Shown here: positions 11,213 through 57,286 of the stretch, in pieces | Layout: every line of letters begins with the position of its first letter | Position numbering within the stretch: the first letter of the stretch is position 1 | Origin: a virus | Taxonomy: Duplodnaviria; Caudoviricetes | Reading direction: 5' to 3' (one strand) | Length of the DNA stretch: 64,000 nucleotides | Virus record (IMG/VR): IMGVR_UViG_3300033498_000048 | Span: 1 to 64,000 of that record | Translations under genes and position numbers: made by a program | The notes under the pieces: model-generated | Told to the model about the DNA's origin: nothing | Database searches by the model: none | What the model saw: only the letters and a program-made list of their open reading frames with translations

Positions 11213-11450
11213 AATCAACAAGTTAGCACTTGCAAGTGTTAGTTAATCATATAACTTGTCCAAGTGCTAACTCATTGATGGATAATAATTGACAATGAAT
11301 TATAACAAAATCAATAAGTTAGCACTTACAGTGTGGTCTTAATTATATAAAGACTGCAAATGCTAACTTGTTGATTCTTAAATTATTTCTGGAAGTGTGA
11401 ATGTCCACAAGTGCTAATATTATGAATCAATGACATAGCACTTGTGGAAC
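11213..11450. repeat. TTAGCACTT-N30-AAGTGCTAA palindromic element cluster (2 full units plus half-sites)
   Basis: Left arms at 11223 and 11319; further half-sites near 11410 and 11435. Confidence 0.9.
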
Positions 11451-11467
11451 AGATATTAATTATATAA

Positions 11468-11743
11468 TCAAGTTAATTGAGCATAAAGTGTTTTGAGTAC
11501 AACACTTTCACTAATACCTTTTAATATGATTGTAGTATCATCATTATCAATTGTACTAACGATGGATACATCATACACATTAGATTCCCATTTAATTATT
11601 TGAATCATCGTAAACCAATCTATCGGTTCAAAGTGAATAATATCATATTTTCTATGAAAGTCTTTACCTAGTTCAAAGAAGTCTGTTTCAGAGTTTGAAT
11701 CAAATCCAAAAGATTGTACACATACATTAAAAATATTATCCAT
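11468..11743 (-). CDS. hypothetical protein
   Basis: 91-aa ORF. Confidence 0.6.
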   Translation of the reverse strand: MDNIFNVCVQSFGFDSNSETDFFELGKDFHRKYDIIHFEPIDWFTMIQIIKWESNVYDVSIVSTIDNDDTTIILKGISESVVLKTLYAQLT

Positions 11744-11753
11744 TATTAATCAC

Positions 11754-12326
11754 TCACACCTCAATGGAATTTAGGCTGTCACACTTCAATTCAGCTAATT
11801 TTTTCAGCAACCTTTCGCGTTTTGCTGCTATTTCACGATATTTTATCAAAAGGGCTTTATACTCTTTGTAAACTTCACAAGCTTGGTCGGGAGTAAATAG
11901 AACTTCTTTATTAAGTGTTCCAGTATATGCTGGGCGTAATTTAACCAGCTCATTCCAGAATAGGTCAAACACTTCTGGGATATATTCCGTGTTCAATAGG
12001 TATGCTCCAGTAGAGAATTGGAAATATAAATACCAGCCATCTTTAGGTTGCTCCATGGTATCAAGGGATAATGTTTGGTTCTTTGAGCCTTTACCAAACC
12101 TACGCAATGTCACAAAATTATCTAAATCAAAGAAGTCTGTCCACCCATAATGTCGTTCAGTCAGAATGCCCCCAAATAATTTTGAAACTTCTAAAAAGTG
12201 AATACGAGTGGTAAGAGTGTCATTCAAACGGGTCACATCATCTGGCACTAATTGGTGTGCAGCAGCTGTTACATGGTTTAATATATCACGGTAAATGGTA
12301 AGTTTGGATTCTAAATCTTGAGTCAT
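11754..12326 (-). CDS. hypothetical protein
   Basis: 190-aa ORF with GGAG RBS and upstream promoter. Confidence 0.7.
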   Translation of the reverse strand: MTQDLESKLTIYRDILNHVTAAAHQLVPDDVTRLNDTLTTRIHFLEVSKLFGGILTERHYGWTDFFDLDNFVTLRRFGKGSKNQTLSLDTMEQPKDGWYLYFQFSTGAYLLNTEYIPEVFDLFWNELVKLRPAYTGTLNKEVLFTPDQACEVYKEYKALLIKYREIAAKRERLLKKLAELKCDSLNSIEV

Positions 12327-12363
12327 GGTTGTTCTCCAGTTTTGTTAAGCAGTTAATTCGTAT

Positions 12364-12393
12364 ATTGTACACAATTAGCTTGTATAAAGTCAA
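12364..12393 (-). promoter_or_regulatory. sigma70-like early promoter
   Basis: TTGACT-N18-TACAAT on the minus strand, with TG just upstream of the -10 box. Confidence 0.55.
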
Positions 12394-12413
12394 CTGGAAT
12401 ACTCGTTAGTAAC

Positions 12414-12680
12414 AAATCAATAAGTTAGCACTTACAACAATTAGGTAATTCATAACACTGTCCAAGTGCTAACTCATTGATTCTTATACGATACAACTTA
12501 ACTCAATTAAATCAGTCCGTTAGCACTTGGAACGATTTACTAATTACTAACAACTCCAAAGTGCTAAGTCGTTGATTTATATTAATTGATAGTGTTACTA
12601 TTCACATCTCAATTAAATCAATAGGTTAGCATTTACAACCGATAATGTATTATAACTGTTCCGAGTGCTAACCAGTAGAT
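12414..12680. repeat. palindromic element cluster (3 units)
   Basis: Left arms at 12425, 12520, 12626. Confidence 0.9.
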
Positions 12681-12724
12681 TTTTGGATGGTACAGTAAAA
12701 GTGAACTTTCATGGTCACTTATAA

Positions 12725-13553: not shown

Positions 13554-14015
13554 AATCAATGAGTTAGCACTTACAAACTGGTATTAGTTATATAACTGTT
13601 CCAAGTGCTAACCTATTGATTTATAATAGTTGACAATGAATGATAAAACTATCAATGACTTAGCACTTGGACAGTGTTATTAATTACTTAATAGCTGCAA
13701 GTGCTAAGTCATTGATAGTTGGTGTATGATATGGTAAAGATGAATCGTCCACGTGCTAACTACAAATTGAGTTAAAATATAAAATCAATAGGTTAGCACT
13801 CACGAGTGTTAGGTAATTTGTAAACGGTTACAAGTGCTAAGTTATTGATTCTCAATACAACACAATTTATATTAGTTTATCAATAACTTAGCACTTATAT
13901 GGATGTATTAATTATATAACTGTTCCAAATGCTATCATATTGATTTAATTGAGCATAAATGTATTAGTAATATCAATAAGTTAGCATTTGGAACGTGTTA
14001 GTAATTAACCACAAC
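13554..14015. repeat. palindromic element cluster (4 full units, 1 degenerate, 1 half-site)
   Basis: Left arms at 13564, 13660, 13793, 13888, 13981. Confidence 0.9.
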
Positions 14016-14175
14016 TGCTAACTTTAACCCACTCTTGTAAATCCATAATATTGAATGTATCTCTGTATATTTTACAATCAATGAACCATACACATTTAGC
14101 TGTATTTTCATCAATTGATTCCACAGTCATCAATGTTCCACCAATTTTCATGTTTACTACACTACCAATATTCAT
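14005..14175 (-). CDS. YodC/DUF2158-like small protein (not in the ORF track)
   Basis: My translation: MNIGSVVNMKIGGTLMTVESIDENTAKCVWFIDCKIYRDTF... (56 aa), matching the xGDVVxLKSGGPxMTV...CxWF pattern. Confidence 0.6.
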   Translation of the reverse strand: MNIGSVVNMKIGGTLMTVESIDENTAKCVWFIDCKIYRDTFNIMDLQEWVKVSSCG

Positions 14176-14248: not shown

Positions 14249-15409
14249 ATGAAGATATTAATGCCTATTGATGATGCGTCATTCTATGGAACAATTCCAG
14301 TTGATAATGTTCTTTATAATCCACAAATTATACTAGGAGGTATTGAAAGGATGTCGTCATTGTTATGTAATACAGTATTTGATGACATTACCATCATCCC
14401 ATGTATTACAACAATTGTTGATAGACTAAATAAATCGAGGGCAAAGTTGGTTAAACAGAGCATAGATTTCCATAAACCAGATTTAATCTTATTACATTAT
14501 CCATGGAAATACACAGCAACACTTAAAAACTCTAAAATTCCAATAATTGCATTTATCCACGATGATTATAGTGGAAAGTCTTGTGGTGGTATAACAATGT
14601 ACACTGGATTGAAAAAATCGTTAGAAATGTTACAAGATGGACATCATATTGCGTTTCTAGGTGAACACCAACTTAGTTGTTATATCAATCATATCCACAA
14701 TAAAATAGACCCGAATTACCTAGTAAACATTGAACAGACGCATATATTTAGACCAGCATATTGTACTAATACAACATTCAACTCACAACGAATTTATGAT
14801 GTGATGAATGTGTCAAGAATCCAACGCATCAAAAACGCATTTGCTCCACATGAATTTGTATTTGATACAACATTTACAAGTTTAATATCAACCAAACGAC
14901 TACCTTCGCGTGAAAACGATAATTTAGGTAAACAAAACGCTAAGTACGAAAATGATAACTTAAACATCAAATGGAAGTCATACCCAAATTGTATTACCAT
15001 ATTAAACAACACATCAGAAGAAAACTTTGAGTATTTAAGACAAGCAAAAACTTTTATGGTAGCGTGGACACGCGAGCCTTGGGGTATAACAGCACTGGAA
15101 GCATTATCTTGTGGTGTTCCATTAGTGGTTTTGACAGATGAAAGTGGAATCAACGCCTCAGATGAAATTGTGGCTGATAAATCACATTCTATTAAAATTG
15201 TAAAAACTAAGGATTGTAAAGAACAGGTCATTAATGCAATTGAGGTATTATCACAATACTCAACTGAAAAACGATTAGAAATTGCCAAAATGACAATGGA
15301 AAGGCACTCTTTAGATGCGTGGAAAAGAATGTTTTGTGATATGTTTGATAAGAGGATGTCGAGTTGTGTTAAGCCAACTCAATCTTTGTTGAAGTTTGTA
15401 TCACACTAG
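14249..15409 (+). CDS. GT-B glycosyltransferase (GT4-like)
   Basis: Signature REPWGITALEALSCGVPLV (E-x7-E); N-terminal MKILMP...GGIER. Confidence 0.8.
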   Translation: MKILMPIDDASFYGTIPVDNVLYNPQIILGGIERMSSLLCNTVFDDITIIPCITTIVDRLNKSRAKLVKQSIDFHKPDLILLHYPWKYTATLKNSKIPIIAFIHDDYSGKSCGGITMYTGLKKSLEMLQDGHHIAFLGEHQLSCYINHIHNKIDPNYLVNIEQTHIFRPAYCTNTTFNSQRIYDVMNVSRIQRIKNAFAPHEFVFDTTFTSLISTKRLPSRENDNLGKQNAKYENDNLNIKWKSYPNCITILNNTSEENFEYLRQAKTFMVAWTREPWGITALEALSCGVPLVVLTDESGINASDEIVADKSHSIKIVKTKDCKEQVINAIEVLSQYSTEKRLEIAKMTMERHSLDAWKRMFCDMFDKRMSSCVKPTQSLLKFVSH

Positions 15410-15413
15410 GCGT

Positions 15414-15475
15414 AAGTTAGCACTTGGACATTGGTGTTAATTATATAACTTGTCCAAGTGCTAACACGTTGATTA
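15414..15475. repeat. single palindromic element between convergent genes
   Basis: TTAGCACTT at 15417, N30, AAGTGCTAA. Confidence 0.9.
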
Positions 15476-16393
15476 TTAAATGAATTGACTGATTTCTACT
15501 GTACCTTGTCTTGATATGTTTCCAATATTATCATATTCAACTACATTAAGATAGTTGTCATTAGATACAGTACCGGAAACCACCTCACCAGAAAAAAAGT
15601 GATTTCCATTATATTTAACAATTCCACTCTTTAAGCTACTTGTGTCGTTTTTAGGTTCAAAAAAACGCAAATTCTTTTTACTCATAATCTCAACTGATTT
15701 GGTTTCAACTTCATAATCTAGGAATGATATGCTTGAAAGTTCAACTGGAATATCGGTAGCAATAATCATATCAGTATCAATATACAATACACATGGATTC
15801 TTAGATATTTGTTCCATTATGTTATATCCAATATTTGAAATCCAATTAGCATCTTGGAACGCTGTTAATTTACTATTGTTTGATGTGACATACCAATATA
15901 ACATATTAAGGAATACCTTTAATGCTATAATCTTGCCTTTAAGTTCATGGTTCTTTTCAACAAAAAATTCGCGTTTTAATTCAGTTCTTTCGATTTTTAA
16001 TTGTTTAACCATTTCACCGAAGTTAGGAATATTCCAAAATGGATAGTTTCCAATAAGAGCTGAATATAGGTTGTTTATCGTGATTACTTTCACTCCAATG
16101 AATGTACCAGTATGGTTCACTCCAATGAATGCTTGTGGATGTTCTTGAACTGATGTGAAATCCAGTTTCTTTGGTTCAATTATAATTGGAGTGATATTAA
16201 GCTCAGTAATAAGCTTTGTGATAACACTGTCAACTAAATAATGTGGGATAGAATCAGGGTTAAATTCAGAGATTGGTTTTCCAGTAAAATCTTGTACAAC
16301 ATCATAAATGATTTTAGATAATAAGCTCATGTGTTTATTTCCTTTAAAAGTTATTTTAATTGTCTGACTTGTTTTTGAATATATACAAATCAT
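15476..16393 (-). CDS. degenerate family-B DNA polymerase fragment fused to a small C-terminal domain
   Basis: Motif B-like KVFLNMLYW and motif C-like YIDTDMI; motif A region reads TINNLYSALI and lacks the catalytic Asp. Confidence 0.6.
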   Translation of the reverse strand: MICIYSKTSQTIKITFKGNKHMSLLSKIIYDVVQDFTGKPISEFNPDSIPHYLVDSVITKLITELNITPIIIEPKKLDFTSVQEHPQAFIGVNHTGTFIGVKVITINNLYSALIGNYPFWNIPNFGEMVKQLKIERTELKREFFVEKNHELKGKIIALKVFLNMLYWYVTSNNSKLTAFQDANWISNIGYNIMEQISKNPCVLYIDTDMIIATDIPVELSSISFLDYEVETKSVEIMSKKNLRFFEPKNDTSSLKSGIVKYNGNHFFSGEVVSGTVSNDNYLNVVEYDNIGNISRQGTVEISQFI

Positions 16394-17714: not shown

Positions 17715-17801
17715 CAGAGAATAGCAGAATCGAACTGCAAGGCTTTTATGTCCTTGAACTGTTTTCCAAACAGCCATCATAACCATATGATAATATTCTC
17801 T
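17715..17801 (-). tRNA. tRNA-Ser(GGA)
   Basis: Acceptor AGAGAAT/ATTCTCT, G73, loop TTGGAAA, long variable arm, T-loop TTCGATT; CCA not encoded. Confidence 0.8.
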
Positions 17802-18043
17802 AGGAATTGTGATATTAGCGATTCACGCATTCTTAAATTATCGTGGCTTACGAAACCCTCTTATATTAAAGAATATAGCCGAATAATTTTCAATAATACT
17901 AATATCAAACTTTAAACATTATGCTTGGAATCTCACTAAATCCATAATCATACTATTATTCCCAGTTGTTTAAGTTGTTCAAGTATTATAATTACTTAAA
18001 TAATGAAGTCAATAATTATTTTGATGTGGTTGGAGAATCGAAC

Positions 18044-18260
18044 TAATTAAAAATAACAATGGTTGGTACTGAATTTCCAACATAGAATCCACTTTAAAAC
18101 ATATTCACGTTTTCGCCTCAGACCCAAGATTGCCATCTTTTTGTGCGTGTTCGGGTTCTTCATTTCGGGTGCATATTCCCTAATCTGTCAGGATTCTTAC
18201 AACCAGGAACGTACCTAAGATATGTGTATCAGCCTACACATTCATTGTTATTTTTAATTA
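18044..18260 (-). ncRNA. unknown structured RNA closed by an 18-bp perfect stem
   Basis: TAATTAAAAATAACAATG/CATTGTTATTTTTAATTA; GC-richer non-coding interior; strand inferred from neighbours. Confidence 0.45.
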
Positions 18261-18347
18261 ACTCTGGAATACAATCTTTAGTGATATGTAATAACTCTTT
18301 TAAGGTGAATAATGTTTACTGACATAGTAAACCTTAAGGTTAATGTG

Positions 18348-18437
18348 TGGAGCTCCATGGGAGAGTCGAACTCCCAACACGCTTGCGCGATGTGACGGGT
18401 TACAAAGCCGTTCCTGTACCAGTTGAGGCAATGGAGC
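18348..18437 (-). tRNA. tRNA-Thr(TGT) with long variable arm
   Basis: Acceptor GCTCCAT/ATGGAGC, U73, CCA; loop TTTGTAA; variable region CACATCGCGCAAGCGTGTT; T-loop TTCGACT. Confidence 0.8.
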
Positions 18438-18446
18438 TTTAATGCG

Positions 18447-18603
18447 TTATGGTTTATGGCAAGACACTGGGTTTTCACCAATACTATTAAGAGTCACCTT
18501 AATATATTCAGTGGTTCAATCAAGTGACTTAATCTTGTTAATTTCCACTTACTATGGTTGGAATCGTTCACCAATCATCATTCAGTCCTGCCATAAACCA
18601 TAA
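18447..18603 (-). ncRNA. unknown structured RNA closed by a 15-bp perfect stem
   Basis: TTATGGTTTATGGCA/TGCCATAAACCATAA; internal GTCAC/GTGAC helix. Confidence 0.45.
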
Positions 18604-18604
18604 A

Positions 18605-18742
18605 GGCTTAGAATACCATTCTTAAACACTCATCATATATGCAAATCCTGAGAAGGAAGTTTATCGGTTTTACCAGCATATTTAGATTAGTAAGTTATCT
18701 CGGTTATTCTTATTTGAGTGAATAAGAATGGTATTCTAAGCC
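18605..18742 (-). ncRNA. unknown structured RNA closed by a 20-bp perfect stem
   Basis: GGCTTAGAATACCATTCTTA/TAAGAATGGTATTCTAAGCC, continued by CACTCA/TGAGTG. Confidence 0.5.
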
Positions 18743-18879
18743 AAAGATGGTATGAACAATCAAATATAGTTTTTATCGCGTTTTAATATTAAACTACGTC
18801 CATGTTACTGGACGATTGGACTTTACCAATATCACGTCATTGGAAGTGAAGTATCTATATTTTACACAATACCATCTTT
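18743..18879 (-). ncRNA. Y RNA-like gene (YrlA type, diverged tRNA module)
   Basis: 11-bp end stem; internal loop TGTGTA/GATTGTTC; stem AAATATAG/CTATATTT; ATACTTC; T-like ATTGG/CCAAT; closed acceptor CGTCCA/TGGACG; D-like TAGTTTAATATTAAAAC. Confidence 0.65.
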
Positions 18880-19201
18880 TAAAAACAAATTATTCCCAAA
18901 TTCCAATACAGTTAAATTTACCTGTATCAACATCAAACGTAAATGATACAGAAAAACCATTGTAACCAGTAACATTTTCTGGACTATCGTGACATTTTTC
19001 AATAGAAAGCACAACTTTACCTCTATCTGTCACTTCATCAACGTTGAGGTTTAATGAGTTGCTTTGTTTGTTCTAAATCAGTCATTATTAGATTCCTAGT
19101 TTAAATGGATACTATAAACACATTTAAATTGATGTCAATCAACTAAATTCTGTTTGAGTTTTCTTTATTTAACGTGGGACTATTCTATCACCACAATAAT
19201 A

Positions 19202-19444
19202 CTATTTTAACCAATGAATCCCTGGAGCATAATGCTTTTCAATAAATTTAACATCTTTTTTTGTAGCATCGAATCCAAGTAATATTGAATCACCATGAGG
19301 GTTTAATACCTCAGTTAAAAAATCATCAACATCACAATCAGCGTCCAACATAGCAAAATCTTCACGGTCAGTCGGGTATTCTTTCACTTCAAAAACATGG
19401 CAACTAAATGGGTCAGGCATTGGAACGTGCATTAATTTCTTCAT
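19202..19444 (-). CDS. hypothetical protein
   Basis: 80-aa ORF. Confidence 0.6.
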   Translation of the reverse strand: MKKLMHVPMPDPFSCHVFEVKEYPTDREDFAMLDADCDVDDFLTEVLNPHGDSILLGFDATKKDVKFIEKHYAPGIHWLK

Positions 19445-19455
19445 TTTTTATAATC

Positions 19456-19860
19456 CTATATCAAAAATTTGTCATTAATATCATAATGTAATTTAGTTTC
19501 TGGGATAACATCTTTATTATCCAATACCATTTTCTTAATATCATTAAATCTTTTTTCAAGTGATTGTGTTGTTACACCTTTCAATGACTTTGCTCTGATT
19601 TTAGCTATTGAATAAGCACAATATGTTCCAGATTCTGGTCTAATGTACATACTGTGTCCAGATTCTGCATAAAACACACCATCTGTTATAGTGAATCCAT
19701 AATTCAACACATCATTTTCAAAGTACCCATTCGTTACTTCTGTCTTATCTTTTGCCAAATAACCTCTACACATCAACAACTCTGTATTACCACCAACAGA
19801 TATTTTTGACTTAGGAAAAACTTTATTCCAAGTGTTAATAACGTCTTCTTTATTTACCAT
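19456..19860 (-). CDS. hypothetical protein
   Basis: 134-aa ORF. Confidence 0.65.
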   Translation of the reverse strand: MVNKEDVINTWNKVFPKSKISVGGNTELLMCRGYLAKDKTEVTNGYFENDVLNYGFTITDGVFYAESGHSMYIRPESGTYCAYSIAKIRAKSLKGVTTQSLEKRFNDIKKMVLDNKDVIPETKLHYDINDKFLI

Positions 19861-20253: not shown

Positions 20254-20343
20254 TGGATATGGAAGGAATTGAACCTACGATGTTTACCACGAGGGAACGG
20301 ATTTACAGTCCGATGATGCACAACCAACAGCACCCTCATATCC
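20254..20343 (-). tRNA. tRNA-Tyr(GTA)
   Basis: Acceptor GGATATG/CATATCC, A73, loop CTGTAAA, long variable arm, T-loop TTCAATT. Confidence 0.85.
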
Positions 20344-20352
20344 AAATTTATT

Positions 20353-20440: not shown

Positions 20441-20477
20441 TTGTGTGGATGTTATTTCCACACATTTATTATTTAAC

Positions 20478-27500: not shown

Positions 27501-27595
27501 ACTTTTTTAATCTACTTCCAAGATGTAGTATTTAGTACACCTTGGAAGTAAGACAATTAACTAACTGTTGCAAGTGCTAACTCATAGATAGTTTC

Positions 27596-35186: not shown

Positions 35187-35465
35187 TCACATCATTGTCT
35201 GTAAAAATGCCAATGTATTATCTGTCCAGTCAACCCACACTTTTAACGTTGGATTAGCGATGAGGGTTTCAACAATTTTTGCTGTGTAATCACAATTTCC
35301 ACCCTCAGCACATTTATATTGTGCCAAAAATCTTTTATTGTTCTTGCCATGATTACTATCTCCTTCTCCTAAATGATTATCTATAAACTGTGTGTGAAAG
35401 TATAAAGCAAAATAAATCAAATGTAAAGGTTTATTTGTCATTAGCAGTTCTAGGAGGTATAACAA
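35187..35465 (-). CDS. hypothetical protein
   Basis: 92-aa ORF; real start is probably the internal ATG (MTNKPL). Confidence 0.5.
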   Translation of the reverse strand: MLYLLELLMTNKPLHLIYFALYFHTQFIDNHLGEGDSNHGKNNKRFLAQYKCAEGGNCDYTAKIVETLIANPTLKVWVDWTDNTLAFLQTMM

Positions 35466-35538
35466 ACTATCAATGACTTAGCACTTGGAACTATTATATA
35501 ACTAAGACCATACCGTAAGTGCTAAGTCATTGATAGTT
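35465..35538. repeat. single palindromic element with perfect 22-bp arms
   Basis: AACTATCAATGACTTAGCACTT-N30-AAGTGCTAAGTCATTGATAGTT. Confidence 0.92.
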
Positions 35539-35966
35539 TACTTTGTAAACACCACGTTACATCCTGTAAATCAGATTGGATTCGATATAAGCTAAACTCA
35601 TTGCATGGAATAAATATTCGTACAAGGTCGTCACTTGTATATGAATAGTTATCTACCAAAATAACTAACTATAGATATAATTCCATTGGATATTATCTTG
35701 TGAAGATGGTGTCCAAGTAATACATTATCACAATTTACAATTGGCTTACAGTGTAAGAAATCACTGAACCCTATTTGTTCTATGGTTATTGCTGGTATAT
35801 TAATTGGAACAAATATTGTCGATAACATTTCATTTGGAATATCTGACCAAGCTAACCACTTTTGCCACGAACTTTTTGCATCAGATACAAGTAATTCATC
35901 TAAAAGCAAAATCGGACTAATAACTTTGGTATTCGCAATCTTTGCTACATTGCTGTATTTTTCATA

Positions 35967-37625: not shown

Positions 37626-37890
37626 AATCAATGACTTAGCACTTGGAACAGGTTATTAATTACTTAATAGCTGCAAGTGCTAAGTCATTGATTGTTGGTT
37701 AAGTTACCATTCATACTCAATTATAAAGAATCAATAGGTTAGCACTTACATGGGTGTATTAGTTATATAACCGTTCTAAATGCTAAGTCATTGATTGTAT
37801 TATCATTCATTGTCATCTACTATAAATCAATGAGTTAGCACTTGGACGTTGTTACTGATTACCTAATCACGTCCAAGTGCTAAAACTAGC
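37626..37890. repeat. palindromic element cluster (3 units)
   Basis: Left arms at 37636, 37739, 37835. Confidence 0.9.
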
Positions 37891-37891
37891 T

Positions 37892-38194
37892 TCATTTGGT
37901 TTCGGCATCTTTAAAAACAGGTTGTATGAAGGTATTAACCTTTAAAATAACATCATTAACATTCACATCATCAATTGATATAGAGTAATCAACAACTTGT
38001 TTATTACCATAATTGATTAATTGAACTCGAATACGATTTAACCAGATAAAGATTAAGATGTTGATGTCAGGATAATCTGATTTGTGATACAAGCACGGAA
38101 AACCACATTGCGAACCAGATTGTAAGTCTACTCCAGTGATACCAGTTTTAACATTGTTGAAAATTTGATTTATTGTTTCATTCGTAAATGGCAT
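37892..38194 (-). CDS. hypothetical protein
   Basis: ATG at 38194 (MPFTNE); the longer call starts inside a repeat. Confidence 0.55.
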   Translation of the reverse strand: MPFTNETINQIFNNVKTGITGVDLQSGSQCGFPCLYHKSDYPDINILIFIWLNRIRVQLINYGNKQVVDYSISIDDVNVNDVILKVNTFIQPVFKDAETK

Positions 38195-38210
38195 CTTAAT
38201 TTGCTCCGTA

Positions 38211-38670
38211 TATGTTAGCACTTGTAGTTATTAGGTAATTTGTAACACCTCTAAGTGCTATCTTGTTGATTTAATTGATAATAATATATACTAATATAAT
38301 CAATAAGTTAGCACTTAGAACAGTTATATAACTAAGACCAGACTGCAAGTGCTAACTCATTGATTCAAATGGCGTTTGATTAATTTAAGTTAATTCAATG
38401 AGTTAGCACTTAGGGCGTGTTACAAATTACCTAATGCCTGTAAGTGCTAACTCATTGATTCTTATGTAATACGATTTATATCAATTAATTCAATAAGATA
38501 GCATTTGGAGCGTGTTATAAATTACTTAACGACTGTAAGTGCTAACTCACTGATTTTTATATAATATAATTTACCTCAATTAAATCAATAAGATAGCACT
38601 TGGAGTCTGGTCTTAGTTATATAACTGTTCTAAGTGCTAACTCACTGATATACACACTGTTAGCATTTGC
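38211..38670. repeat. palindromic element array (5 units, 95-bp period)
   Basis: Left arms at 38215, 38308, 38403, 38498, 38593. Confidence 0.92.
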
Positions 38671-38908: not shown

Positions 38909-39049
38909 TTACACCTCTTAATGGAACATATCCATGCTCGATAAACTTTTGTTTAAGCTCTTCCAATGACATTGAGTTAATACGTTCCATAGCTCGTTTA
39001 GCCAATTCTTGAATGTTCATTTCACTTCTCCAATGTTTTTGATTGTGTT

Positions 39050-39185
39050 AGTTAGCACTTGCTGGATTCAGATATATTAACGATGTCAAAGTGCTTTCCA
39101 GTTAATATTCAATATCAATTAAAACAATGAGTTAGCACTTGGAGCTGTCTATTAATTAACTACCACTTGTAAGTGCTAACTTATT
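39050..39185. repeat. palindromic elements (1 degenerate, 1 full)
   Basis: TTAGCACTT near 39052 and 39133. Confidence 0.8.
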
Positions 39186-39187
39186 GT

Positions 39188-39433
39188 TTAATATCGTTTA
39201 TCTTGTTTTGACACCCATTCCCAAGCGGATTCTTCACTTTCAAAAACGTGGAATTGGGCAAAATGAATCTTTCTGTGTTTACAGTTTCTAATATCTAAAA
39301 AACTACCATTGTCATCTCCAGTTATATGATTCACAACATTAGTTGTCTTAAAATCTCTGGTTCCATTTTTATATCGAAGTTCAAGTATATTATACATTTT
39401 CATTAAACCTATCAATTGATTTGAATATTGCAT
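39188..39433 (-). CDS. hypothetical protein
   Basis: 81-aa ORF. Confidence 0.5.
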   Translation of the reverse strand: MQYSNQLIGLMKMYNILELRYKNGTRDFKTTNVVNHITGDDNGSFLDIRNCKHRKIHFAQFHVFESEESAWEWVSKQDKRY

Positions 39434-39723: not shown

Positions 39724-39790
39724 AATCAGTAGGTTAGCACTTGGAACGGTTATATAACTAATACCACGTTGTAAGTGCTAACTCATTGTT
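39724..39790. repeat. single palindromic element
   Basis: TTAGCACTT-N30-AAGTGCTAA. Confidence 0.88.
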
Positions 39791-40866: not shown

Positions 40867-41030
40867 AATCAATAAGTTAGCACTTATTGGCATTAGTTAA
40901 TTAGTAACACCGTCCAAGTGCTAACCTACTGATTTAATTGAGTATAATATACACTAATATTATCAATAGGTTAGCACTTGGACCAGTTAAGTAATTAATA
41001 CCACGTTGTAAGTGCTAACTCATTGATTTA
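40867..41030. repeat. palindromic element cluster (2 units)
   Basis: Left arms at 40877 and 40971. Confidence 0.9.
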
Positions 41031-47466: not shown

Positions 47467-47625
47467 TCAATGTCATCCAACTTATTTTTTATGGGTCTAT
47501 ATCAAATATAAACATTATTTACTCACCAACATTGAGGGGTGCTAAATCTGCACCCATCGTAGTATAACTTAATTAATGGATGCAAGTGCTAACTCATTGA
47601 TTTATGGTTACACACTGGATTGGGA

Positions 47626-48497: not shown

Positions 48498-48833
48498 ACT
48501 ATCAATGACTTAGCATTTGGAACAGTTAGGTAATTACTAACACACCACAAGTGCTAAGTCATTGATAGTTGTTATCGTATAAGTTTGGTAGTAACTGTTC
48601 CAAGTGCTAACTCGTTTGTGTCAATAACCTGTTCTATAATATCATTCATTGTCAATTATTAAGAATCAATGACTTAGCATTTGGAACAGTTATATAATTT
48701 AATTAACTAATGCCTGTAAGTGCTAACTCGTTGATTCTTAATAATTGATAAATATACAGTAACAATCAATAACTTAGCACTTGGAACAGTTATACAACTA
48801 AGACCACGGTGTAAGTGCTAACTCATTGATTCC
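48498..48833. repeat. palindromic element cluster (3 full units plus a half-site)
   Basis: Left arms at 48510, 48674, 48774. Confidence 0.9.
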
Positions 48834-51461: not shown

Positions 51462-51980
51462 TTACCATTTGTTATCACCTTGAACATAACCGATTGCATT
51501 AATAATTTCATCCCATGAAACTGCTCTGTTTATTCCCAAATCATAACCATAATCTTCTGTTTCATGGGTTGAAATTGAATAATGTATCACTCCATCCTCA
51601 GTGATTAACGCTGTCAATATTCCTGAGTCCTTTGATTTAAAAGTTATGTTGAAATAACCAGTGTCTGCATCAATAGAAATACAAGGGTCATACTTTGAAA
51701 TTGTTGGAACCAAATAAAGAAAGTTCTTTGCGGATGCGTTTGAAATTTCTTTGAAGTGTTTGATTTTCTTAAAAGCCTCATTATAATTGGCTATAACCAC
51801 ATCGAATCGTACAAGGGTATTTTCCCATTCCTCTGTACTATGTTCCCAAGTATATAACATAGCCTCTCGATGAAAATCAATATTTAATTGTGTGATATAT
51901 TCTATCCACTTTTGTTCTAATTCGGTACACTTTGTCACCACGATAACCTCGATGTGTGATATTTTATGGATGCCTGTCAA
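51462..51980 (-). CDS. hypothetical protein
   Basis: 172-aa ORF, 4-nt coupling with HD-Pnk. Confidence 0.55.
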   Translation of the reverse strand: MTGIHKISHIEVIVVTKCTELEQKWIEYITQLNIDFHREAMLYTWEHSTEEWENTLVRFDVVIANYNEAFKKIKHFKEISNASAKNFLYLVPTISKYDPCISIDADTGYFNITFKSKDSGILTALITEDGVIHYSISTHETEDYGYDLGINRAVSWDEIINAIGYVQGDNKW

Positions 51981-53209
51981 TTAACAACGATTACAATTTC
52001 ATCAAATTCACCTAATGATGGTAATTGCATTTTCCAATATTGTGAATTAATAACTTCTACTGGAACATTCTTATCATGTCGAGTTGATTGTCTATCAACA
52101 TTGCTTTTGAATGCTGTTAGGAATACAACTCCAATAGTGTGATATTTTCTATTTTTCAACTCATTTAAATGATATTGGCGTGTGTTTTTAATGGTGTTGG
52201 TGTTATCAACAATCATATCGGAATTTAGTCTTGCAATACTTAATAATCGTTCTTTACACTTTGCTTTAAAATGCGAGTCTTTTGTGGATTTGTAAAAGCT
52301 AGTTGCATAATCATTTCCATACAACTCGATTCTCAAGTCGTCCATTGAAAATGTTGGTAAATTGCCTAATTGATTTCTAAATGTTGTTTTTCCAGAACCA
52401 GAAGCTCCAATCATAAAATAAGCCTTTGGAAACTTATTATTTCTAGGGCTATTAAAATAATCCAATTTGGCTAAATATTGCGATTTAAAATTAGCACACC
52501 ATTCCTCGGCTTTTTTATTATTTTGTGTATAATCATCACTAATCCTACCATAATTATCTGATAACAAAATATCTAAAAACACATCAACATTACCTATGAA
52601 TTTAGATATAGTCCAACACATATCACTAATACTGTTTTTGTTTGTAATGTTCCAAGGTTTATGTTGTTCAATTAGCCAAGCTATTACAAACAATAATTCA
52701 TTAGTAAATAATGGCTTTAATTGTGGACTTGCTAATATGAAATCAATGAATATTCTTGATGATTGCAATTCATGTCCAGTAAATGCAAAATACGTTCCAC
52801 GTTCAATTGAATATTTTTCAATTTTAGATTTTGGTTTTCCAACATCGTGAAATAATAATACTACCGAAACAATAAAGTCATTAATATTCCAATTATTAGA
52901 ACATAGTATCGAATATTCTTCCAGTGCCATTTTAGTATGAATGGCAACATTAGACTCACGATGGAATGGAGATTGTTCAACACAATTTTCCATATCATTC
53001 CACAATTTTGATACAACTAATGATTGTTGTATTGTATCAAACATTTCTTTATAATTCATATTAATCCCATTTAAAATCATCACATGGTTTATGGTACTCT
53101 CCGATATATTCACAACATCCAAAATAGAATTGCCTACAGTTTTTACAACAGATTGTAGTTTGTATTGTTCGTTTTGCATATTCTTCATTGTGATTTGCCA
53201 TATTTGCAA
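51977..53209 (-). CDS. HD-Pnk: HD phosphoesterase fused to a P-loop polynucleotide kinase (RNA end-healing)
   Basis: SPFHRESNVAIHT, LFHDVGKP, LIEQH, DNYGR; C-terminal IGASGSGKTT, SMDDLR, IVDNTN...R. Confidence 0.8.
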   Translation of the reverse strand: MQIWQITMKNMQNEQYKLQSVVKTVGNSILDVVNISESTINHVMILNGINMNYKEMFDTIQQSLVVSKLWNDMENCVEQSPFHRESNVAIHTKMALEEYSILCSNNWNINDFIVSVVLLFHDVGKPKSKIEKYSIERGTYFAFTGHELQSSRIFIDFILASPQLKPLFTNELLFVIAWLIEQHKPWNITNKNSISDMCWTISKFIGNVDVFLDILLSDNYGRISDDYTQNNKKAEEWCANFKSQYLAKLDYFNSPRNNKFPKAYFMIGASGSGKTTFRNQLGNLPTFSMDDLRIELYGNDYATSFYKSTKDSHFKAKCKERLLSIARLNSDMIVDNTNTIKNTRQYHLNELKNRKYHTIGVVFLTAFKSNVDRQSTRHDKNVPVEVINSQYWKMQLPSLGEFDEIVIVVN

Positions 53210-54678: not shown

Positions 54679-55398
54679 TTAATTCACTCGATTCCATAAG
54701 TAAATTTCAGCATTTTTAAAAGAATTGTCTTTGTGTGGAGTCCAATCAACACTTGAAAAATCTTTGGTTGGATTGTCAGCTATGATTCGTTCAAATTCTA
54801 ATTCCCCAGCAACACGATTAGCGTAACTAACGGCATTATCTATAGTAAAATCAATTCCAAATTTTTTGCCCCTTTGTACTAAGTATGCAATAGCTTCACC
54901 AACAAGAACATCATTGTTATCTGATTCATTCTCTTTGATATGATATAAATCAATAGCCCGTTTAGCACATTCGACATACTTACGGACTTTCCCAGTTCCA
55001 ATAAAATCATACTGAATCCATTTAGTGTAATCTGGACTAGGTAAACTGACGTGTTTATCAAGGTATTCTGATAATTTAGTATTATCCAATGATTTTAAAA
55101 CACTAATAGCTTCACCAACAACATTTGTATTGTGTTCTTGAATTGCTGCGTTATAATTTACAACACACTCAATTTCTTTTTCAATTTCAATGATTTGGTC
55201 GTCAGTGATACTAGCTAAATTGAAGACTTCGTAATATTCAGCATCGCTAGTTATACCCCAATCACAAAGGTCTGGAAACTGAATGTGGCACAAATCACGG
55301 TCATTTGATAAATAGAATCCACGAATAACCCATAGAATTGATGGGTGATTAAAAACTAAAAACTTTTGTACTTGTTTCATAAAAATATACTCCTTCAA
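54679..55398 (-). CDS. hypothetical protein (paralogue of 62413-63132)
   Basis: FNHPSILWVIRGFYLSN...LASITDDQI; both are 239 aa. Confidence 0.7.
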   Translation of the reverse strand: MKEYIFMKQVQKFLVFNHPSILWVIRGFYLSNDRDLCHIQFPDLCDWGITSDAEYYEVFNLASITDDQIIEIEKEIECVVNYNAAIQEHNTNVVGEAISVLKSLDNTKLSEYLDKHVSLPSPDYTKWIQYDFIGTGKVRKYVECAKRAIDLYHIKENESDNNDVLVGEAIAYLVQRGKKFGIDFTIDNAVSYANRVAGELEFERIIADNPTKDFSSVDWTPHKDNSFKNAEIYLWNRVN

Positions 55399-55694
55399 TC
55401 TAGTGGAACATTCAATCCAACTGATACAACTTCACAAGTATGAATGAACACATCTTCTTGTATGGTAGTTGGCTGTTTACACATCTTTAACATTTCAAAG
55501 TAAAACCAGTTCGAGATTGGTAAATGTCCACTTTGAAAGAATGGACCCAACAAGCGATTAACCGTTACATCGTTGATGAAATGTTTGTAACACAATTGTT
55601 TGAAAAGGTTATTTAACTCCGTATCATCTGATTGAAAACACAATCCATATCCGTGGACTTCATCTGGATAATGTATATACAATTTTGTTATCAT
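55395..55694 (-). CDS. hypothetical protein
   Basis: 99-aa ORF. Confidence 0.55.
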   Translation of the reverse strand: MITKLYIHYPDEVHGYGLCFQSDDTELNNLFKQLCYKHFINDVTVNRLLGPFFQSGHLPISNWFYFEMLKMCKQPTTIQEDVFIHTCEVVSVGLNVPLD

Positions 55695-55696
55695 TT

Positions 55697-56056
55697 TCAG
55701 TCCATAATAGTAATAGGTTGACCTTCTTTTCTAATGAGTTCCTTTTTATCAGATACAATATTATTGAAAATCTTATTTGTTTTAACTGTTAAATTGATAG
55801 AAATATAATCTAATGTATCGTGTAACAAATTAATAACCCTTAATACACTATTAACTTCATAATCGAAACATTGAATATCAACCCCACCTCCAATTACCCA
55901 TGTTTCAACTACTCCAATTTTTCTTAAGACACTTCTTAAATTTTCAGCAGCTAAGTACGAATTGTTGATATTTGTATTCTTAAACTCAACAGGAATAAAT
56001 TTTCTTGGAATCCTATATCCTAATTCAACTAACTGTTTGTGTTCTAAATGTCTCAA
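55697..56056 (-). CDS. hypothetical protein
   Basis: 119-aa ORF. Confidence 0.55.
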   Translation of the reverse strand: MRHLEHKQLVELGYRIPRKFIPVEFKNTNINNSYLAAENLRSVLRKIGVVETWVIGGGVDIQCFDYEVNSVLRVINLLHDTLDYISINLTVKTNKIFNNIVSDKKELIRKEGQPITIMD

Positions 56057-56102
56057 CTTATTAACTAAGAAATTATAACATTCAGTATCATAATCATATG
56101 GT

Positions 56103-56306
56103 TCATTGTATTGAAGAAGTTAAAGTTCTAACCACACAAATCTTATCAACTAAACTAGATAAAATTTGTATTAAAGCAACTTTATCTTCTTCCACTGAAC
56201 CATATCTGTAATAAAACCTTTTATATACAGATATTAACCTTTTCTTATTCTGAGTTTTACAAGCTCTAATTAATAGCTGCTCGATATTAGTTAATTTTGT
56301 TGTCAT
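56103..56306 (-). CDS. hypothetical protein
   Basis: 67-aa ORF. Confidence 0.45.
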   Translation of the reverse strand: MTTKLTNIEQLLIRACKTQNKKRLISVYKRFYYRYGSVEEDKVALIQILSSLVDKICVVRTLTSSIQ

Positions 56307-56541
56307 GTTTGTTACTTACCAAATTTGATTTAAAATCCTTAAAAGTTGCCAGTTTTACAGCATCGTTCCAATTGGAACCTGTATTGTCCGTCCGTATTTC
56401 AGTTACTTTGTAGATATGACCGTTCACATTAATACAATCAAAACATAGTTTGGTTCTCAATGTGATAATATCAAATTCATCAGTTTTTTAGAAAACCAAC
56501 ATACAACTGGTCTATCGAACCATCTTCTCATTTAACACCTA

Positions 56542-56991
56542 TTAAAATTCTGTTCCGTTTGAACTAATGTAATCAGCTTTTACGTCATTAACACTTTTTG
56601 CGTATATTGAATGTCGCCACTCGCTTCTGATTTTTTCAATTGATTTTGGTGTTGGTAATCTACCTACCAACACATACACACATCTAAATGTATGGTGGTA
56701 ATTCTTTTGGACTTCAGCATTTTCACCATGAGTAAGATGACCACTATATTCTTTCCACTTTAATGCCGTAGATTCAGAACTAAACGTTTTAATGATTGTG
56801 CGTTTATCACGCATATCTGTTGATTGTTCTATGCCATAAATTGCCATTTTTACTCCTAGAGAAATTGTGTAATCAAGTGTTACAGTGTTAATAATTATAT
56901 GAACCAAAATGCTAATGGAATATATACGAATCAAGCCATCGTAGTATCTCCAAAATATTGTTTCTAAGCTATGGAACATATTGTAACACAT
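56542..56991 (-). CDS. hypothetical protein
   Basis: Real start is probably the internal ATG (MAIYGIEQ). Confidence 0.5.
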   Translation of the reverse strand: MCYNMFHSLETIFWRYYDGLIRIYSISILVHIIINTVTLDYTISLGVKMAIYGIEQSTDMRDKRTIIKTFSSESTALKWKEYSGHLTHGENAEVQKNYHHTFRCVYVLVGRLPTPKSIEKIRSEWRHSIYAKSVNDVKADYISSNGTEF

Positions 56992-57027
56992 CTAAAAACA
57001 AAATGTACAACTTTTTTTAAAATGACG

Positions 57028-57286
57028 TATCAATGAGTTAGCATTTGGAGCTATTAGGTAATTAGTAAACAGTTCCAAGTGCTAACTCATTGATAGTGTT
57101 ATCATTCATTGTCAATTATTAAGAATCAATGACTTAGCACTTACTGCGTGTTACTAATTACCTAATAGCCCCAAGTGCTAACCTGTTGATTTTATTATAA
57201 TATAATTTATGTTTGTAAACCAATGAGTTAGCACTTCGGCAGTGTTATGTTATTAATACCTATTATAAGTGCTAACCTATTGATAA
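57028..57286. repeat. palindromic element cluster (3 units)
   Basis: Left arms at 57038, 57134, 57228. Confidence 0.9.

What the first reader, a model, noticed from the sequence alone, without database searches (positions are those of the whole stretch)
11213..57286. About 30 copies of a fixed-geometry palindrome TTAGCACTT-N30-AAGTGCTAA punctuate the region
Seen: roughly 30 full or near-full units in 12 intergenic sites, plus lone half-sites near 27575 and 47585. Arms extend to ATCAAT(G/A)A(G/C)TTAGCACTT, up to 22 bp perfect at 35465-35538. In all seven units I counted, the distance between TTAGCA(C/T)T and A(G/A)TGCTAA is exactly 32 nt although the spacer sequence varies. The spacer has a directional, semi-conserved core (GGAAC..GTTATATAAC or TAATTAC..TAA) present in both orientations. 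Inference: strict spacing with sequence drift indicates a protein-recognised site or cruciform (REP/BIME-like or operator), not a terminator. No transposase is in the window.
Basis: seen in the sequence. Interest (0 to 1): 0.82.

Follow-up and report, generated by a model that had tools for sequence, protein, structure and literature searches.

The report
Phased palindromic protein-site arrays in phage
A 306-kb uncultured T4-like phage carries about 100 copies (30 in this window) of a rigidly built 66-68-bp mirror-image DNA element between its early genes; it behaves like a docking site for DNA-binding proteins rather than an RNA hairpin, terminator or transposon, but what binds it and what it does remain untested.

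Summary
The window has 18 exact TTAGCACTT-N30/31-AAGTGCTAA units (none in shuffles) and about 30 units at 12 intergenic sites once mismatches are allowed. The whole 305,782-bp phage has 98 units, 86 with a spacer of exactly 30.

Each unit is wAATCAAT-RAG-TTAGCACTT, then a 30-bp directional core centred on TAATTA, then the mirror arm. Units stand in arrays with a 94-96-bp period.

Variable arm positions show no compensatory change. G.U and A.C mismatches are equally common in the transcript sense. The two core halves are less complementary than chance. There are no target-site duplications, and the phage encodes no RAYT, tyrosine or serine recombinase, MotA/AsiA, HU/IHF or HrcA.

Duplex DNA read by protein is therefore the best reading. 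163 of 217 arms match the IHF consensus. The invariant 9-mer matches 8 of 9 bases of the HrcA/CIRCE half-site, but at N30 rather than N9. The one relative unit found keeps only the 9-mers and N30.

Units avoid late-gene regions, often lie upstream of consensus sigma-70 early promoters, and flank cassettes that differ in the relative, as PeSL elements do.

Function is inferred, not shown. Earlier agents of this scan reached similar conclusions on other windows of the same genome. I class it as a new variant of dispersed intergenic palindromes.

The parts
11214..11375 (.). Array 1: two N30 units (9-mer to 9-mer 11223-11270 and 11319-11366). Degenerate arms lie at 11183-11191, 11409-11417 and 11435-11443.
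11095..11123 (-). Sigma-70-like early promoter (TTGACA-17-TACAAT, 11 of 12), downstream of array 1 in the direction of transcription and upstream of gene 10585-11043.
12416..12680 (.). Array 2: three units (12425-12472 N30, 12520-12567 N30, 12626-12671 N28). Promoter TTGACT-18-TACAAT lies at 12364-12393 (-), 23 nt beyond the last arm.
13555..14021 (.). Array 3: four N30 units (13564, 13660, 13793, 13888) plus a truncated N23 unit at 13981-14021.
15408..15473 (.). A single unit that exactly fills the gap between convergent genes 14249-15409 (+) and 15476-16393 (-).
27532..27589 (.). Half-unit: the right arm (27572-27580) and the core are kept; the left arm is degenerate. It lies next to the TROVE gene 27596-29020.
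35464..35539 (.). Single unit with perfect 23-bp arms (9-mers at 35478-35525), squeezed between two co-directional ORFs.
37627..37892 (.). Array 6: three units (37636 N30, 37739 N30, 37835 N31). It ends 28 nt before the start codon of the 543-aa DUF7788/vWA-like gene 35967-37598.
38206..38649 (.). Array 7: five units (38215 N29, then 38308, 38403, 38498 and 38593, each exactly 95 bp apart).
39043..39188 (.). Array 8: one degenerate N28 unit (39052-39097) and one N30 unit (39132-39179).
39725..39790 (.). Single unit between co-directional genes, 20 nt before the start of the cREC_REC gene 39390-39704. A relative has different genes at this junction.
40868..41027 (.). Array 10: two units (40877-40924, 40971-41018), starting 5 nt after the stop codon of the Dda-like helicase 41033-42247.
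47533..47601 (.). Half-unit: right arm 47584-47592 with a core that includes TAATTA; the left arm is replaced by a short G+C-rich hairpin.
48501..48830 (.). Array 11: units at 48510-48557 (N30), 48674-48726 (N35) and 48774-48821 (N30), plus an orphan right arm at 48602-48610.
57029..57284 (.). Array 12: three N30 units (57038, 57134, 57228); the last has an atypical core.

Best explanation
The units are sequence-specific protein-binding sites on double-stranded phage DNA. Each is a 66-68-bp dyad with three parts: two outer arms (wAATCAAT-RAG-TTAGCACTT), a spacer fixed at 30 bp, and a directional core centred on TAATTA. The most likely mechanism, which is inferred, is as follows. A dimeric factor of unknown identity, probably phage-encoded or a conserved host protein, reads the invariant 9-mers TTAGCACTT and AAGTGCTAA at fixed distance. 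The outer part of each arm is a consensus IHF box and recruits the host DNA bender IHF. Arrays with a 95-bp period (nine helical turns) then build a phased nucleoprotein structure in the intergenic gaps of the early, hyperplastic regions, typically between the end of one cassette and the consensus sigma-70 promoter of the next. There the structure would act as an architectural or boundary element for early transcription. As a by-product, the near-identical 19-23-bp arms would give homology patches for cassette exchange, as proposed for PeSL elements. Shown: the anatomy, the copy number, the fixed geometry, the lack of selection for pairing, the placement, and conservation of the 9-mers and N30 in one relative. 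Inferred: every binding partner and the regulatory effect.
For: The geometry is fixed: 86 of 98 units are N30, and the TAATTA hexamer sits at core positions 13-18. The arms are conserved in sequence, not in pairing. At the variable pairs (-3..0 with 49..52, and 7 with 42), Watson-Crick counts equal the shuffle expectation. T7 and A42 variants almost never co-occur. In the sense of local transcription, G.U mismatches number 83 and A.C mismatches 76 (p = 0.63). The core halves are anti-complementary and directional, and their orientation is unrelated to gene strand (25:23 in minus-minus gaps). Units occur in co-directional, convergent and divergent gaps alike. 163 of about 217 arms match WATCAANNNNTTR; outside the arms there are 58 matches against 55 expected (consensus as in PMC9452768 and PMC10380432). 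The array period is 94-96 bp for 28 of 47 adjacent-unit distances under 200 bp (31 at 93-96), although neighbouring units are no more alike than distant ones. The phage is T4-like, with about 30 perfect TTGACA-N16-18-TATAAT (mostly N17) promoters and TATAAATA late promoters. 16 strong promoters have a unit 150 bp or less upstream and none has one downstream. In two cases (254221, 281104) the arm's ATTGAT overlaps the -35 hexamer by one base (ATTGATTGACA); in a third (116593) a degenerate arm abuts it. Units anti-correlate with late promoters (rho = -0.48, p = 0.007). The relative L075 (helicase 69% identical) has one unit with both 9-mers and N30 intact, and the gene content around it differs.
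Against: No binding protein was identified. The phage has no HU/IHF, HrcA, MotA or AsiA homologue, and the host is unknown. Two IHF footprints of about 34 bp each would collide in the roughly 29-bp linkers, so not all boxes can be occupied at once (inference from the known IHF footprint). In the relative's unit the IHF box survives on one arm only and TAATTA is absent, so these parts may be dispensable. Distances from unit to promoter vary (8 to 113 nt); helical phasing is only suggestive (Rayleigh n*R^2 = 5.4 at 10.25-10.5 bp, n = 14, many periods tried). Most strong promoters (71 of 87) have no unit within 150 bp upstream. There are 37 orphan or truncated arms, and the closest relative's 8 kb holds few units, which fits a partly neutral, expanding and decaying repeat. 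No RNA data exist for this phage.
Confidence: 0.45

Rival explanations
1. Selfish or neutral dispersed repeat. The units spread and decay by recombination or gene conversion, in the manner of REP, ERIC or Correia elements, without a dedicated function. Arm conservation would then reflect the copying mechanism rather than a regulatory protein.
For: There are 37 orphan, truncated or hybrid arms, and shortened units with N13-N23 spacers. Near-identical cores (28-29 of 30) occur at loci more than 100 kb apart, and the nearest relative of 75 of 86 units lies in another array. Abundance differs sharply between relatives: one unit in 8.3 kb of the closest relative, and none in a relative whose topoisomerase II is 64% identical. 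Units sit at the junctions of cassettes that differ between relatives.
Against: There are no target-site duplications at any boundary. The phage encodes no Y1/RAYT, tyrosine or serine recombinase. The arms are about 95% conserved while the cores have drifted to about 60% identity (18 of 30), and the 9-mers with N30 persist in a relative whose helicase is 69% identical. That pattern requires selection, or a sequence-specific copying enzyme that has not been found. The constant 95-bp period among unlike neighbours is hard to obtain from random insertion.
Confidence: 0.2
2. RNA-level element. When transcribed inside polycistronic early mRNAs, each unit folds into a roughly 19-bp stem with a 30-nt loop. 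The hairpin would serve as an RNase III-type processing site, a 3'-end stabiliser or a weak bidirectional terminator.
For: 16 of 27 co-directional arrays leave 40 nt or less before the next start codon, so they must be transcribed. The units fold stably as single strands, at -8 to -22 kcal/mol with z-scores from -2.6 to -10.9. One unit exactly fills a convergent gap (15408-15473). My strict scan found only 4 canonical intrinsic terminators between genes in 306 kb, and a relative has a canonical terminator where this phage has a 4-unit array. T residues are mildly enriched just outside the arms.
Against: No compensatory changes were found, and G.U is not preferred over A.C in the transcript sense. 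Loop length is fixed to the nucleotide and the loop carries a conserved hexamer, which hairpin function does not require. Units also sit in divergent gaps and upstream of promoters. No Rfam family reaches its threshold; there are only weak generic miRNA-hairpin matches. The stems are A+T-rich and lack a U-run of terminator quality.
Confidence: 0.15
3. Site-specific recombination sites. The core, 12-6-12 with two unlike half-sites around an A+T-rich hexamer and IHF boxes on either side, would resemble a Xer/dif or attP/attC-like crossover site that moves gene cassettes.
For: The core has a 12 + TAATTA + 12 layout with heterotypic, directional halves. IHF boxes flank it, as in lambda attP (established knowledge). 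The layout is cassette-like and cassette content differs in the relative. Family-2 cores carry GTTAG...CTAAC, reminiscent of the attC R boxes.
Against: The phage encodes no tyrosine or serine recombinase. About 100 active sites in both orientations would scramble the genome. Left and right core halves are in linkage (subfamily structure) rather than freely reassorted at the centre. Arrays of 2-6 units have no cassette between them. The relative's unit lacks the TAATTA centre.
Confidence: 0.08
4. HrcA decoy. The invariant 9-mers mimic the half-sites of the CIRCE operator (TTAGCACTC-N9-GAGTGCTAA). On replicating phage DNA they would titrate the host heat-shock repressor HrcA and so raise GroEL/DnaK levels for capsid assembly.
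For: 8 of 9 bases match per half-site, in the same inverted arrangement as CIRCE (CIRCE consensus in PMC7464140 and PMC545781). The extra 21 bp of spacer equal two helical turns, so both half-sites stay on one face of the helix (arithmetic). The 9-mers and N30 are the only parts kept in the relative. The phage encodes no DnaJ or Cpn10-family chaperone of its own. T4-type capsid proteins need GroEL (established knowledge).
Against: The defining N9 spacing never occurs in the genome, and no evidence was found here that an HrcA dimer can bridge half-sites set 30 bp apart (HrcA is generally described as binding CIRCE as a dimer). The host is unknown, so the presence of HrcA is unknown. With hundreds of known operator consensus sequences, an 8-of-9 match to one of them is not improbable by chance (my estimate). 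The idea explains neither the IHF boxes, nor the core, nor the 95-bp period.
Confidence: 0.06

Closest known systems
PeSL (promoter-early stem-loop) cassettes of T4-type phages (Arbiol 2010, PMC2839356; Comeau 2014, PMC4122927)
   Same: Both are repeated intergenic inverted-repeat motifs in T4-like genomes. Both concentrate in hyperplastic early regions, lie just upstream of sigma-70-like early promoters, and sit next to small ORFan cassettes whose content differs between related phages.
   Different: A PeSL is a short stem-loop, mostly a G/C-core stem (GN-loop-CN in RB49/phi1, A3-4G3-loop-C3T3-4 in nt-1) but AGNA-loop-TCNT in PST, fused to its own promoter, Shine-Dalgarno sequence and start codon. 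Here the unit is a 66-68-bp dyad with 19-bp sequence-conserved arms, a 30-bp fixed core and an IHF box. Most units carry no promoter, units form 95-bp phased arrays, and pairing is not under selection.
REP/BIME elements of enterobacteria, especially the IHF-binding BIME-1 (RIP/RIB)
   Same: Both are extragenic, palindromic, highly repeated, often clustered, associated with an IHF consensus, and tolerated inside operons (established knowledge).
   Different: REP/BIME elements are bacterial, carry a different sequence, and have REPs of 35-40 bp with a variable linker. Their IHF site lies between two REPs, and a RAYT transposase propagates them. Here the IHF box is part of each arm, the spacer is fixed, and the phage has no RAYT.
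CIRCE operator of the HrcA heat-shock regulon
   Same: The half-site TTAGCACT(T) and its mirror match CIRCE at 8 of 9 bases, in the same orientation (PMC7464140).
   Different: The spacer is 30 bp, not 9. There are about 100 copies, none upstream of chaperone genes. ATCAAT extensions and a conserved centre are present.
Correia (CREE/nemis) elements of Neisseria
   Same: Both are small dispersed inverted-repeat elements with IHF binding, located in intergenic regions, co-transcribed with genes and able to sit next to promoters (established knowledge).
   Different: Correia elements are 100-155 bp, have TA target duplications and a central IHF site, and are cleaved as RNA by RNase III. Here there is no duplication, the IHF box is in the arms, and nothing signals selection on the RNA.

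Membership tests
IHF binding site | 13-bp consensus WATCAANNNNTTR | tested here: met
   163 of about 217 arms match exactly. Elsewhere in the genome there are 58 matches against 55 +/- 9 in shuffles.
IHF binding site | IHF heterodimer available and binding shown | not testable with these tools
   The phage has no PF00216 gene. The host is unknown. The capsid protein is closest to phages of Acidovorax, Variovorax and Stenotrophomonas, hosts that are expected to have IHF (prior knowledge).
CIRCE / HrcA operator | Inverted repeat TTAGCACTC / GAGTGCTAA | tested here: met
   8 of 9 bases match per half-site, in the same orientation (PMC7464140).
CIRCE / HrcA operator | 9-bp spacer between the half-sites | tested here: not met
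   The spacer is 30 bp in 86 of 98 units. No pair at N9 occurs anywhere in the genome.
CIRCE / HrcA operator | Location at promoters of groESL or dnaK operons | tested here: not met
   No DnaJ or Cpn10 gene was found in the phage. The units flank ORFans, a helicase and a vWA-like gene.
PeSL (T4-type phages) | The element contains its own sigma-70-like early promoter followed by a Shine-Dalgarno sequence and a start codon | tested here: not met
   Only 16 of 87 strong promoters are within 150 bp of a unit, at variable distance. -10-like boxes next to arms are not enriched toward gene starts (8 of 35 against 8 of 40).
PeSL (T4-type phages) | Located in hyperplastic regions at indel or replacement boundaries between related phages | tested here: inconclusive
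   Units avoid late regions. The one relative shows different cassettes between conserved anchors, with a unit at the junction. Only one comparison was available.
REP/BIME | A cognate RAYT (Y1 transposase) in the genome | tested here: not met
   PF01797 is absent from the phage. The host genome could not be examined.
MITE | Terminal inverted repeats flanked by target-site duplications | tested here: not met
   Inverted arms are present, but no 2-5-bp direct repeat exceeds the shuffle expectation at any boundary.
Intrinsic terminator | G+C-rich stem, loop of 3-8 nt, U-run | tested here: not met
   The scan found 0 terminator-like sites in 35-42 kb and 2 in 10.5-16 kb (1.8 expected), neither at a unit. 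The loop is 30 nt and the stems are A+T-rich.
Structured RNA family (Rfam) | Match above the gathering score, or covariation that supports a fold | tested here: not met
   Only tRNAs pass the gathering threshold. Units give sub-threshold miRNA-hairpin matches of 24-32 bits against thresholds of 54-113. There is no covariation.
T4 MotA-dependent middle promoter | MotA box TGCTTtA 12 +/- 1 bp upstream of a -10 box, with MotA and AsiA encoded | tested here: not met
   No MotCF or AsiA gene was found. -10-like boxes peak 10 and 13-14 nt after GTGCTAA, but mainly in unit-to-unit linkers.
Integron attC / tyrosine-recombinase core site | A cognate integrase, and R boxes RYYYAAC / GTTRRRY | tested here: not met
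   PF00589 and PF00239 are absent. R-box-like GTTAG/CTAAC occurs only in one core subfamily.

The most novel reading that the evidence does not exclude
The units are a two-part host-capture device. The outer boxes load host IHF. The invariant CIRCE-like 9-mers, set two extra helical turns apart, sequester the host heat-shock repressor HrcA on the replicating phage DNA. This would de-repress GroEL/DnaK for assembly of a jumbo T4-type capsid: a phage genome using dispersed operator mimics as a transcription-factor sponge.
Probability: 0.06. Interest if true: 0.85.

Novelty: new variant of a known kind. Interest (0 to 1): 0.6.

Why it matters
Dispersed intergenic repeats are well studied in bacteria and have been described in T4-type phages only as the short promoter-terminator PeSL motifs. 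This family differs from both. It has a long dyad with nucleotide-exact geometry, arms conserved in sequence rather than in pairing, a directional core, a consensus box for a host architectural protein, and arrays phased at nine helical turns. It makes up about 2% of a 306-kb genome.

If a protein complex assembles on these arrays, this would be a phage-borne chromatin-like or insulator system for early genes, or a sponge for host regulators. It would also offer a handle on how hyperplastic regions of large phages exchange cassettes. The element is short and easy to synthesise, and the predictions can be tested by binding assays even without the uncultured phage.

Tried and rejected
1. Relatives by exact DNA pattern. 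The full unit found nothing in IMG/VR. The arm alone found 31 single chance hits without partner arms. Metagenome and GTDB genome scans gave 28 and 14 single-copy hits, none with the ATCAAT extensions or the TAATTA centre. One conserved freshwater locus is unrelated in its flanks.

2. GenBank phages. There was no nucleotide match to the window or to an array. The nearest cultured relative by capsid protein, Acidovorax phage ACP17 (59% G+C), has no recurrent palindromes in its first 50 kb.

3. Relatives by protein. The helicase, the vWA-like protein and topoisomerase II led to contigs of one close relative, with a single unit in 8.3 kb. A relative at 64% identity has none. Three promising contigs had no DNA available.

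4. The arm as an activator-dependent or MotA-type promoter: rejected.

5. The late-promoter reading of TATAATTA/TATAACTA in cores: rejected. The capsid gene uses the T4-type TATAAATA, and that motif is not enriched in the window.

6. MITE with target duplication: rejected.

7. Arrays as simple tandem duplications: rejected. Within-array core identity is 18.3 of 30 and between-array identity is 18.0.

8. Hidden base pairing inside the core: mutual information shows only subfamily structure.

9. RNA evidence: no RNA run holds this phage. The source is a microbial-mat metagenome.

10. Neighbouring proteins as candidate binders: almost all are ORFans.

11. Literature: no paper was found that describes the motif.

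Full report
OBSERVATION

The pattern TTAGCACTT-N(25-40)-AAGTGCTAA occurs 18 times in the window, 17 with a 30-nt spacer and one with 31. None of 100 dinucleotide-preserving shuffles gave a single match. The 9-mer with at most one mismatch occurs 93 times against 19 expected.

Pairing left and right 9-mers with mismatches allowed gives about 30 units at 12 intergenic sites between 11214 and 57284. Both keep a core but have lost one arm.

The window is the first 64 kb of a complete 305,782-bp IMG/VR phage record with direct terminal repeats. Over the whole genome there are 98 units with at most two mismatches. 86 of them have a spacer of exactly 30; the rest have 27-32. An arm weight matrix finds 217 arms at 12 bits or more, against 1 in a shuffled genome.

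ANATOMY

The logo of the 86 N30 units reads: w-A-ATCAAT-R-A-G/C-TTAGCACTT, then RSA.C.kTT..., then TAATTA, then ...AA.G.TSY, then AAGTGCTAA-C/G-T-Y-ATTGAT-T. The overall layout is 19-12-6-12-19.

The core is not symmetric. Positions 10-21 and 28-39 are less complementary than column composition predicts. For example, pair 19/30 forms a Watson-Crick pair in 8 units against 39 expected, and z-scores run from -2.7 to -6.8. After orienting the units, the core consensus is RSAnnGTGkTaT-TARTTA-yaTAACnGTTSC, with 44 units in one direction and 42 in the other.

Two main subfamilies exist. One has ...TGGTMT TARTTA TATAACnGTTCC, in which the GTTATATAAC palindrome lies 4 bp off centre. The other has ...GTTAS TAATTA CCTAAY, that is, GTTAG-N7-CTAAC. 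Mutual information between core columns reflects these subfamilies and shows no long-range base pairing.

Units stand alone or in arrays of 2-6, making 40 arrays genome-wide. Start-to-start spacing is 94-96 bp for 28 of the 47 neighbour distances under 200 bp, and 93-96 bp for 31 of them.

Neighbours in an array are no more alike than units in different arrays: core identity is 18.3 against 18.0 of 30. The most similar unit lies in another array for 75 of 86 units, and near-identical cores occur more than 100 kb apart. Neighbouring units tend to share core orientation (34 same, 14 opposite). Orientation is unrelated to gene strand (25:23 in minus-minus gaps, 9:7 in plus-plus gaps).

DUPLEX DNA OR HAIRPIN?

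The arms can pair. As single strands they fold at -8 to -22 kcal/mol. Pairing, however, is not what is conserved.

- At the variable arm positions (-3..0 with 49..52, and 7 with 42), the number of Watson-Crick pairs equals the shuffle expectation. T at position 7 and A at position 42 almost never coincide.
- With units oriented by local transcription, wobble-compatible G.U mismatches number 83 and incompatible A.C mismatches 76 (p = 0.63).
- The loop is fixed to the nucleotide and carries a conserved hexamer.
- No Rfam family reaches its threshold. Only weak, generic miRNA-hairpin matches appear.
- The terminator scan finds nothing at the units.
- A 30-bp central spacer also makes cruciform extrusion unlikely. 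This last point rests on established knowledge and is an inference.

I conclude that the arms are read as sequence on double-stranded DNA.

CONTEXT

The phage is T4-like. Its gp23 homologue is 59-62% identical to those of Acidovorax, Variovorax and Stenotrophomonas phages. The capsid gene has a T4-type late promoter, TATAAATA. The genome carries 87 sigma-70-like promoters matching at least 11 of 12 positions, about 30 of them perfect.

91 of 98 units are intergenic, and they occur in co-directional, convergent and divergent gaps. Per 10-kb bin, units anti-correlate with intergenic late promoters (rho = -0.48, p = 0.007). They are absent from the tRNA cluster (17.7-29.4 kb) and from the structural gene blocks.

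Sixteen strong promoters have a unit within 150 bp upstream, and none has one downstream. In two cases (254221, 281104) the arm's ATTGAT overlaps the -35 hexamer by one base (ATTGATTGACA); at 116593 a degenerate arm abuts it. The distances from the 9-mer to the -35 box are 8, 8, 17, 17, 18, 31, 41, 41 and 51 nt, and further. They hint at helical phasing, but only weakly.

On the other hand, 16 of 27 co-directional arrays leave 40 nt or less before the next start codon. RNA polymerase must therefore read through those arrays, which means the units are not efficient terminators. -10-like hexamers do peak 10 and 13-14 nt outside the arms, but mostly in unit-to-unit linkers (43 of 113). They are not enriched toward gene starts (8 of 35) compared with gene ends (8 of 40). 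The arms are therefore not activator boxes of gene promoters. The phage has no MotA or AsiA.

WHAT MIGHT BIND

I checked this myself. 163 of about 217 arms fit WATCAANNNNTTR exactly, while the rest of the genome holds 58 matches against 55 expected. The consensus is as cited in PMC9452768 and PMC10380432.

Independently, I noticed that the invariant 9-mer matches the half-site of the CIRCE operator of HrcA (TTAGCACTC-N9-GAGTGCTAA; PMC7464140, PMC545781) at 8 of 9 bases and in the same inverted arrangement. The spacer, however, is 30, not 9, and no N9 pair exists anywhere in the genome.

The phage encodes no HU/IHF, HrcA, DnaJ or Cpn10 gene. It also encodes no Y1/RAYT, tyrosine or serine recombinase. 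There are no target-site duplications.

RELATIVES

Exact-pattern scans of IMG/VR, JGI metagenomes and GTDB genomes found no other multi-copy carrier, and GenBank phages have no match.

Protein-guided retrieval found one close relative in sample ERZ925373. Its helicase is 69% identical and its vWA-like protein 65% identical. Its 2.7-kb contig L075 has one unit at 1664-1711 with both 9-mers and N30 intact. The IHF box is present on the right arm only, and the centre reads GTGTTG instead of TAATTA. Its 5.6-kb contig L081 has no unit.

Between the helicase and the cREC_REC gene, the two phages carry different small genes. This is the cassette-turnover pattern described for PeSLs.

A more distant relative, with topoisomerase II 64% identical (L089), has a canonical intrinsic terminator where this phage has a 4-unit array followed by a perfect promoter. 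By my strict scan, this phage has only four canonical intergenic terminators in 306 kb.

The family is thus confined to a narrow clade and has expanded in this genome. Its most durable features are the 9-mers and their spacing.

INTERPRETATION

The best-supported reading (confidence 0.45) is a protein-binding dyad on duplex DNA. A dimeric reader of the 9-mers at fixed distance, probably together with host IHF on the outer boxes, would form phased nucleoprotein arrays. These arrays would punctuate early, hyperplastic regions, usually upstream of early promoters, and would incidentally provide homology for cassette exchange. All binding partners and effects are inferred.

The rival readings are:
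- a largely neutral, spreading and decaying repeat (0.20);
- an RNA processing, stabilising or termination hairpin (0.15);
- site-specific recombination sites (0.08);
- an HrcA sponge (0.06).

These figures leave about 0.06 for explanations not considered here. Each rival is set out in its own section, with its evidence and the result that would refute it.

COMPARISON AND NOVELTY

The closest known kinds are PeSL elements of T4-type phages and REP/BIME-1 elements. The resemblance to both lies in placement and presumed consequences, not in membership. The defining promoter fusion of PeSL and the RAYT link of REP were both tested and not met.

No published description of this motif was found. 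Earlier agents of this scan, working on other windows of the same genome, reached compatible conclusions: about 100 copies, a protein-binding site, and IHF possible but not shown. This report adds the following:
- the anti-complementary, directional core;
- the transcript-sense mismatch test;
- the heterogeneity of units within arrays;
- the promoter and terminator context;
- the recombinase and chaperone searches;
- the CIRCE half-site match, with its failed spacing test.

I rate it a new variant of a known kind, with interest 0.6.

Noticed in passing
window 17715-29389 (- strand): A cluster of 17 tRNA genes, interspersed with several perfect TTGACA-17-TATAAT promoters (23346, 23680, 27262, 29418). 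No palindromic units lie inside it. Rfam calls one gene (26878-26966) tRNA-Sec-like, while ARAGORN calls it tRNA-Ser (tga).
   Followed up: partly
window 27596-29020 (-) and 35967-37598 (-): Two Ro60-related genes. One has a TROVE domain. The other is a 543-aa DUF7788/DUF2828 vWA-like protein whose family has more than 1,400 metagenomic relatives. They lie in a region that also holds a polynucleotide kinase-like ATPase (51977-53209) and a cREC_REC receiver-domain gene (39390-39704). Together these suggest an RNA repair or quality-control module.
   Followed up: partly
whole genome (G000:C1), e.g. window 1005-1033, 23346-23374, 30076-30104: About 30 perfect-consensus sigma-70 promoters (TTGACA-N16-18-TATAAT, mostly N17), and 87 matching at least 11 of 12 positions. 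This is many for one phage genome. By a strict scan, only four canonical intrinsic terminators lie between genes in 306 kb, one of them directly after the capsid gene (197237-197276).
   Followed up: partly
L035, L038:5448-5495, L041, L042, L047, L052 (freshwater metagenome contigs): A conserved single-copy TTAGCACTT-N30-AAGTGCTAA with unrelated flanks. It sits in a divergent gap beside an AAA/NUMOD3-type gene and a small tyrosine integrase, and looks like an operator-flanked promoter of some mobile element. The same 9-mers and spacing appear in a different context.
   Followed up: partly
G000:C1:86605-86636 and 86976-87007: Two mini-variants with the same 9-mers but a 14-bp spacer and no ATCAAT extension. 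They lie in the divergent gap that also holds normal units.
   Followed up: no
relative contig of P0171 (sample ERZ27277814, 146 kb; no DNA available): A T4-like relative (topoisomerase II 59% identical) carries two DnaJ-like genes just downstream of topoisomerase II. The phage studied here has none.
   Followed up: no
linkers between units, e.g. window 11271-11318, 13612-13659, 57086-57133: Linkers fall into recurring families. One contains AATTGACAATGAATGATAAC in either orientation, with a TTGACA that has no properly spaced -10 box. This may be a second protein site or a decayed promoter.
   Followed up: partly
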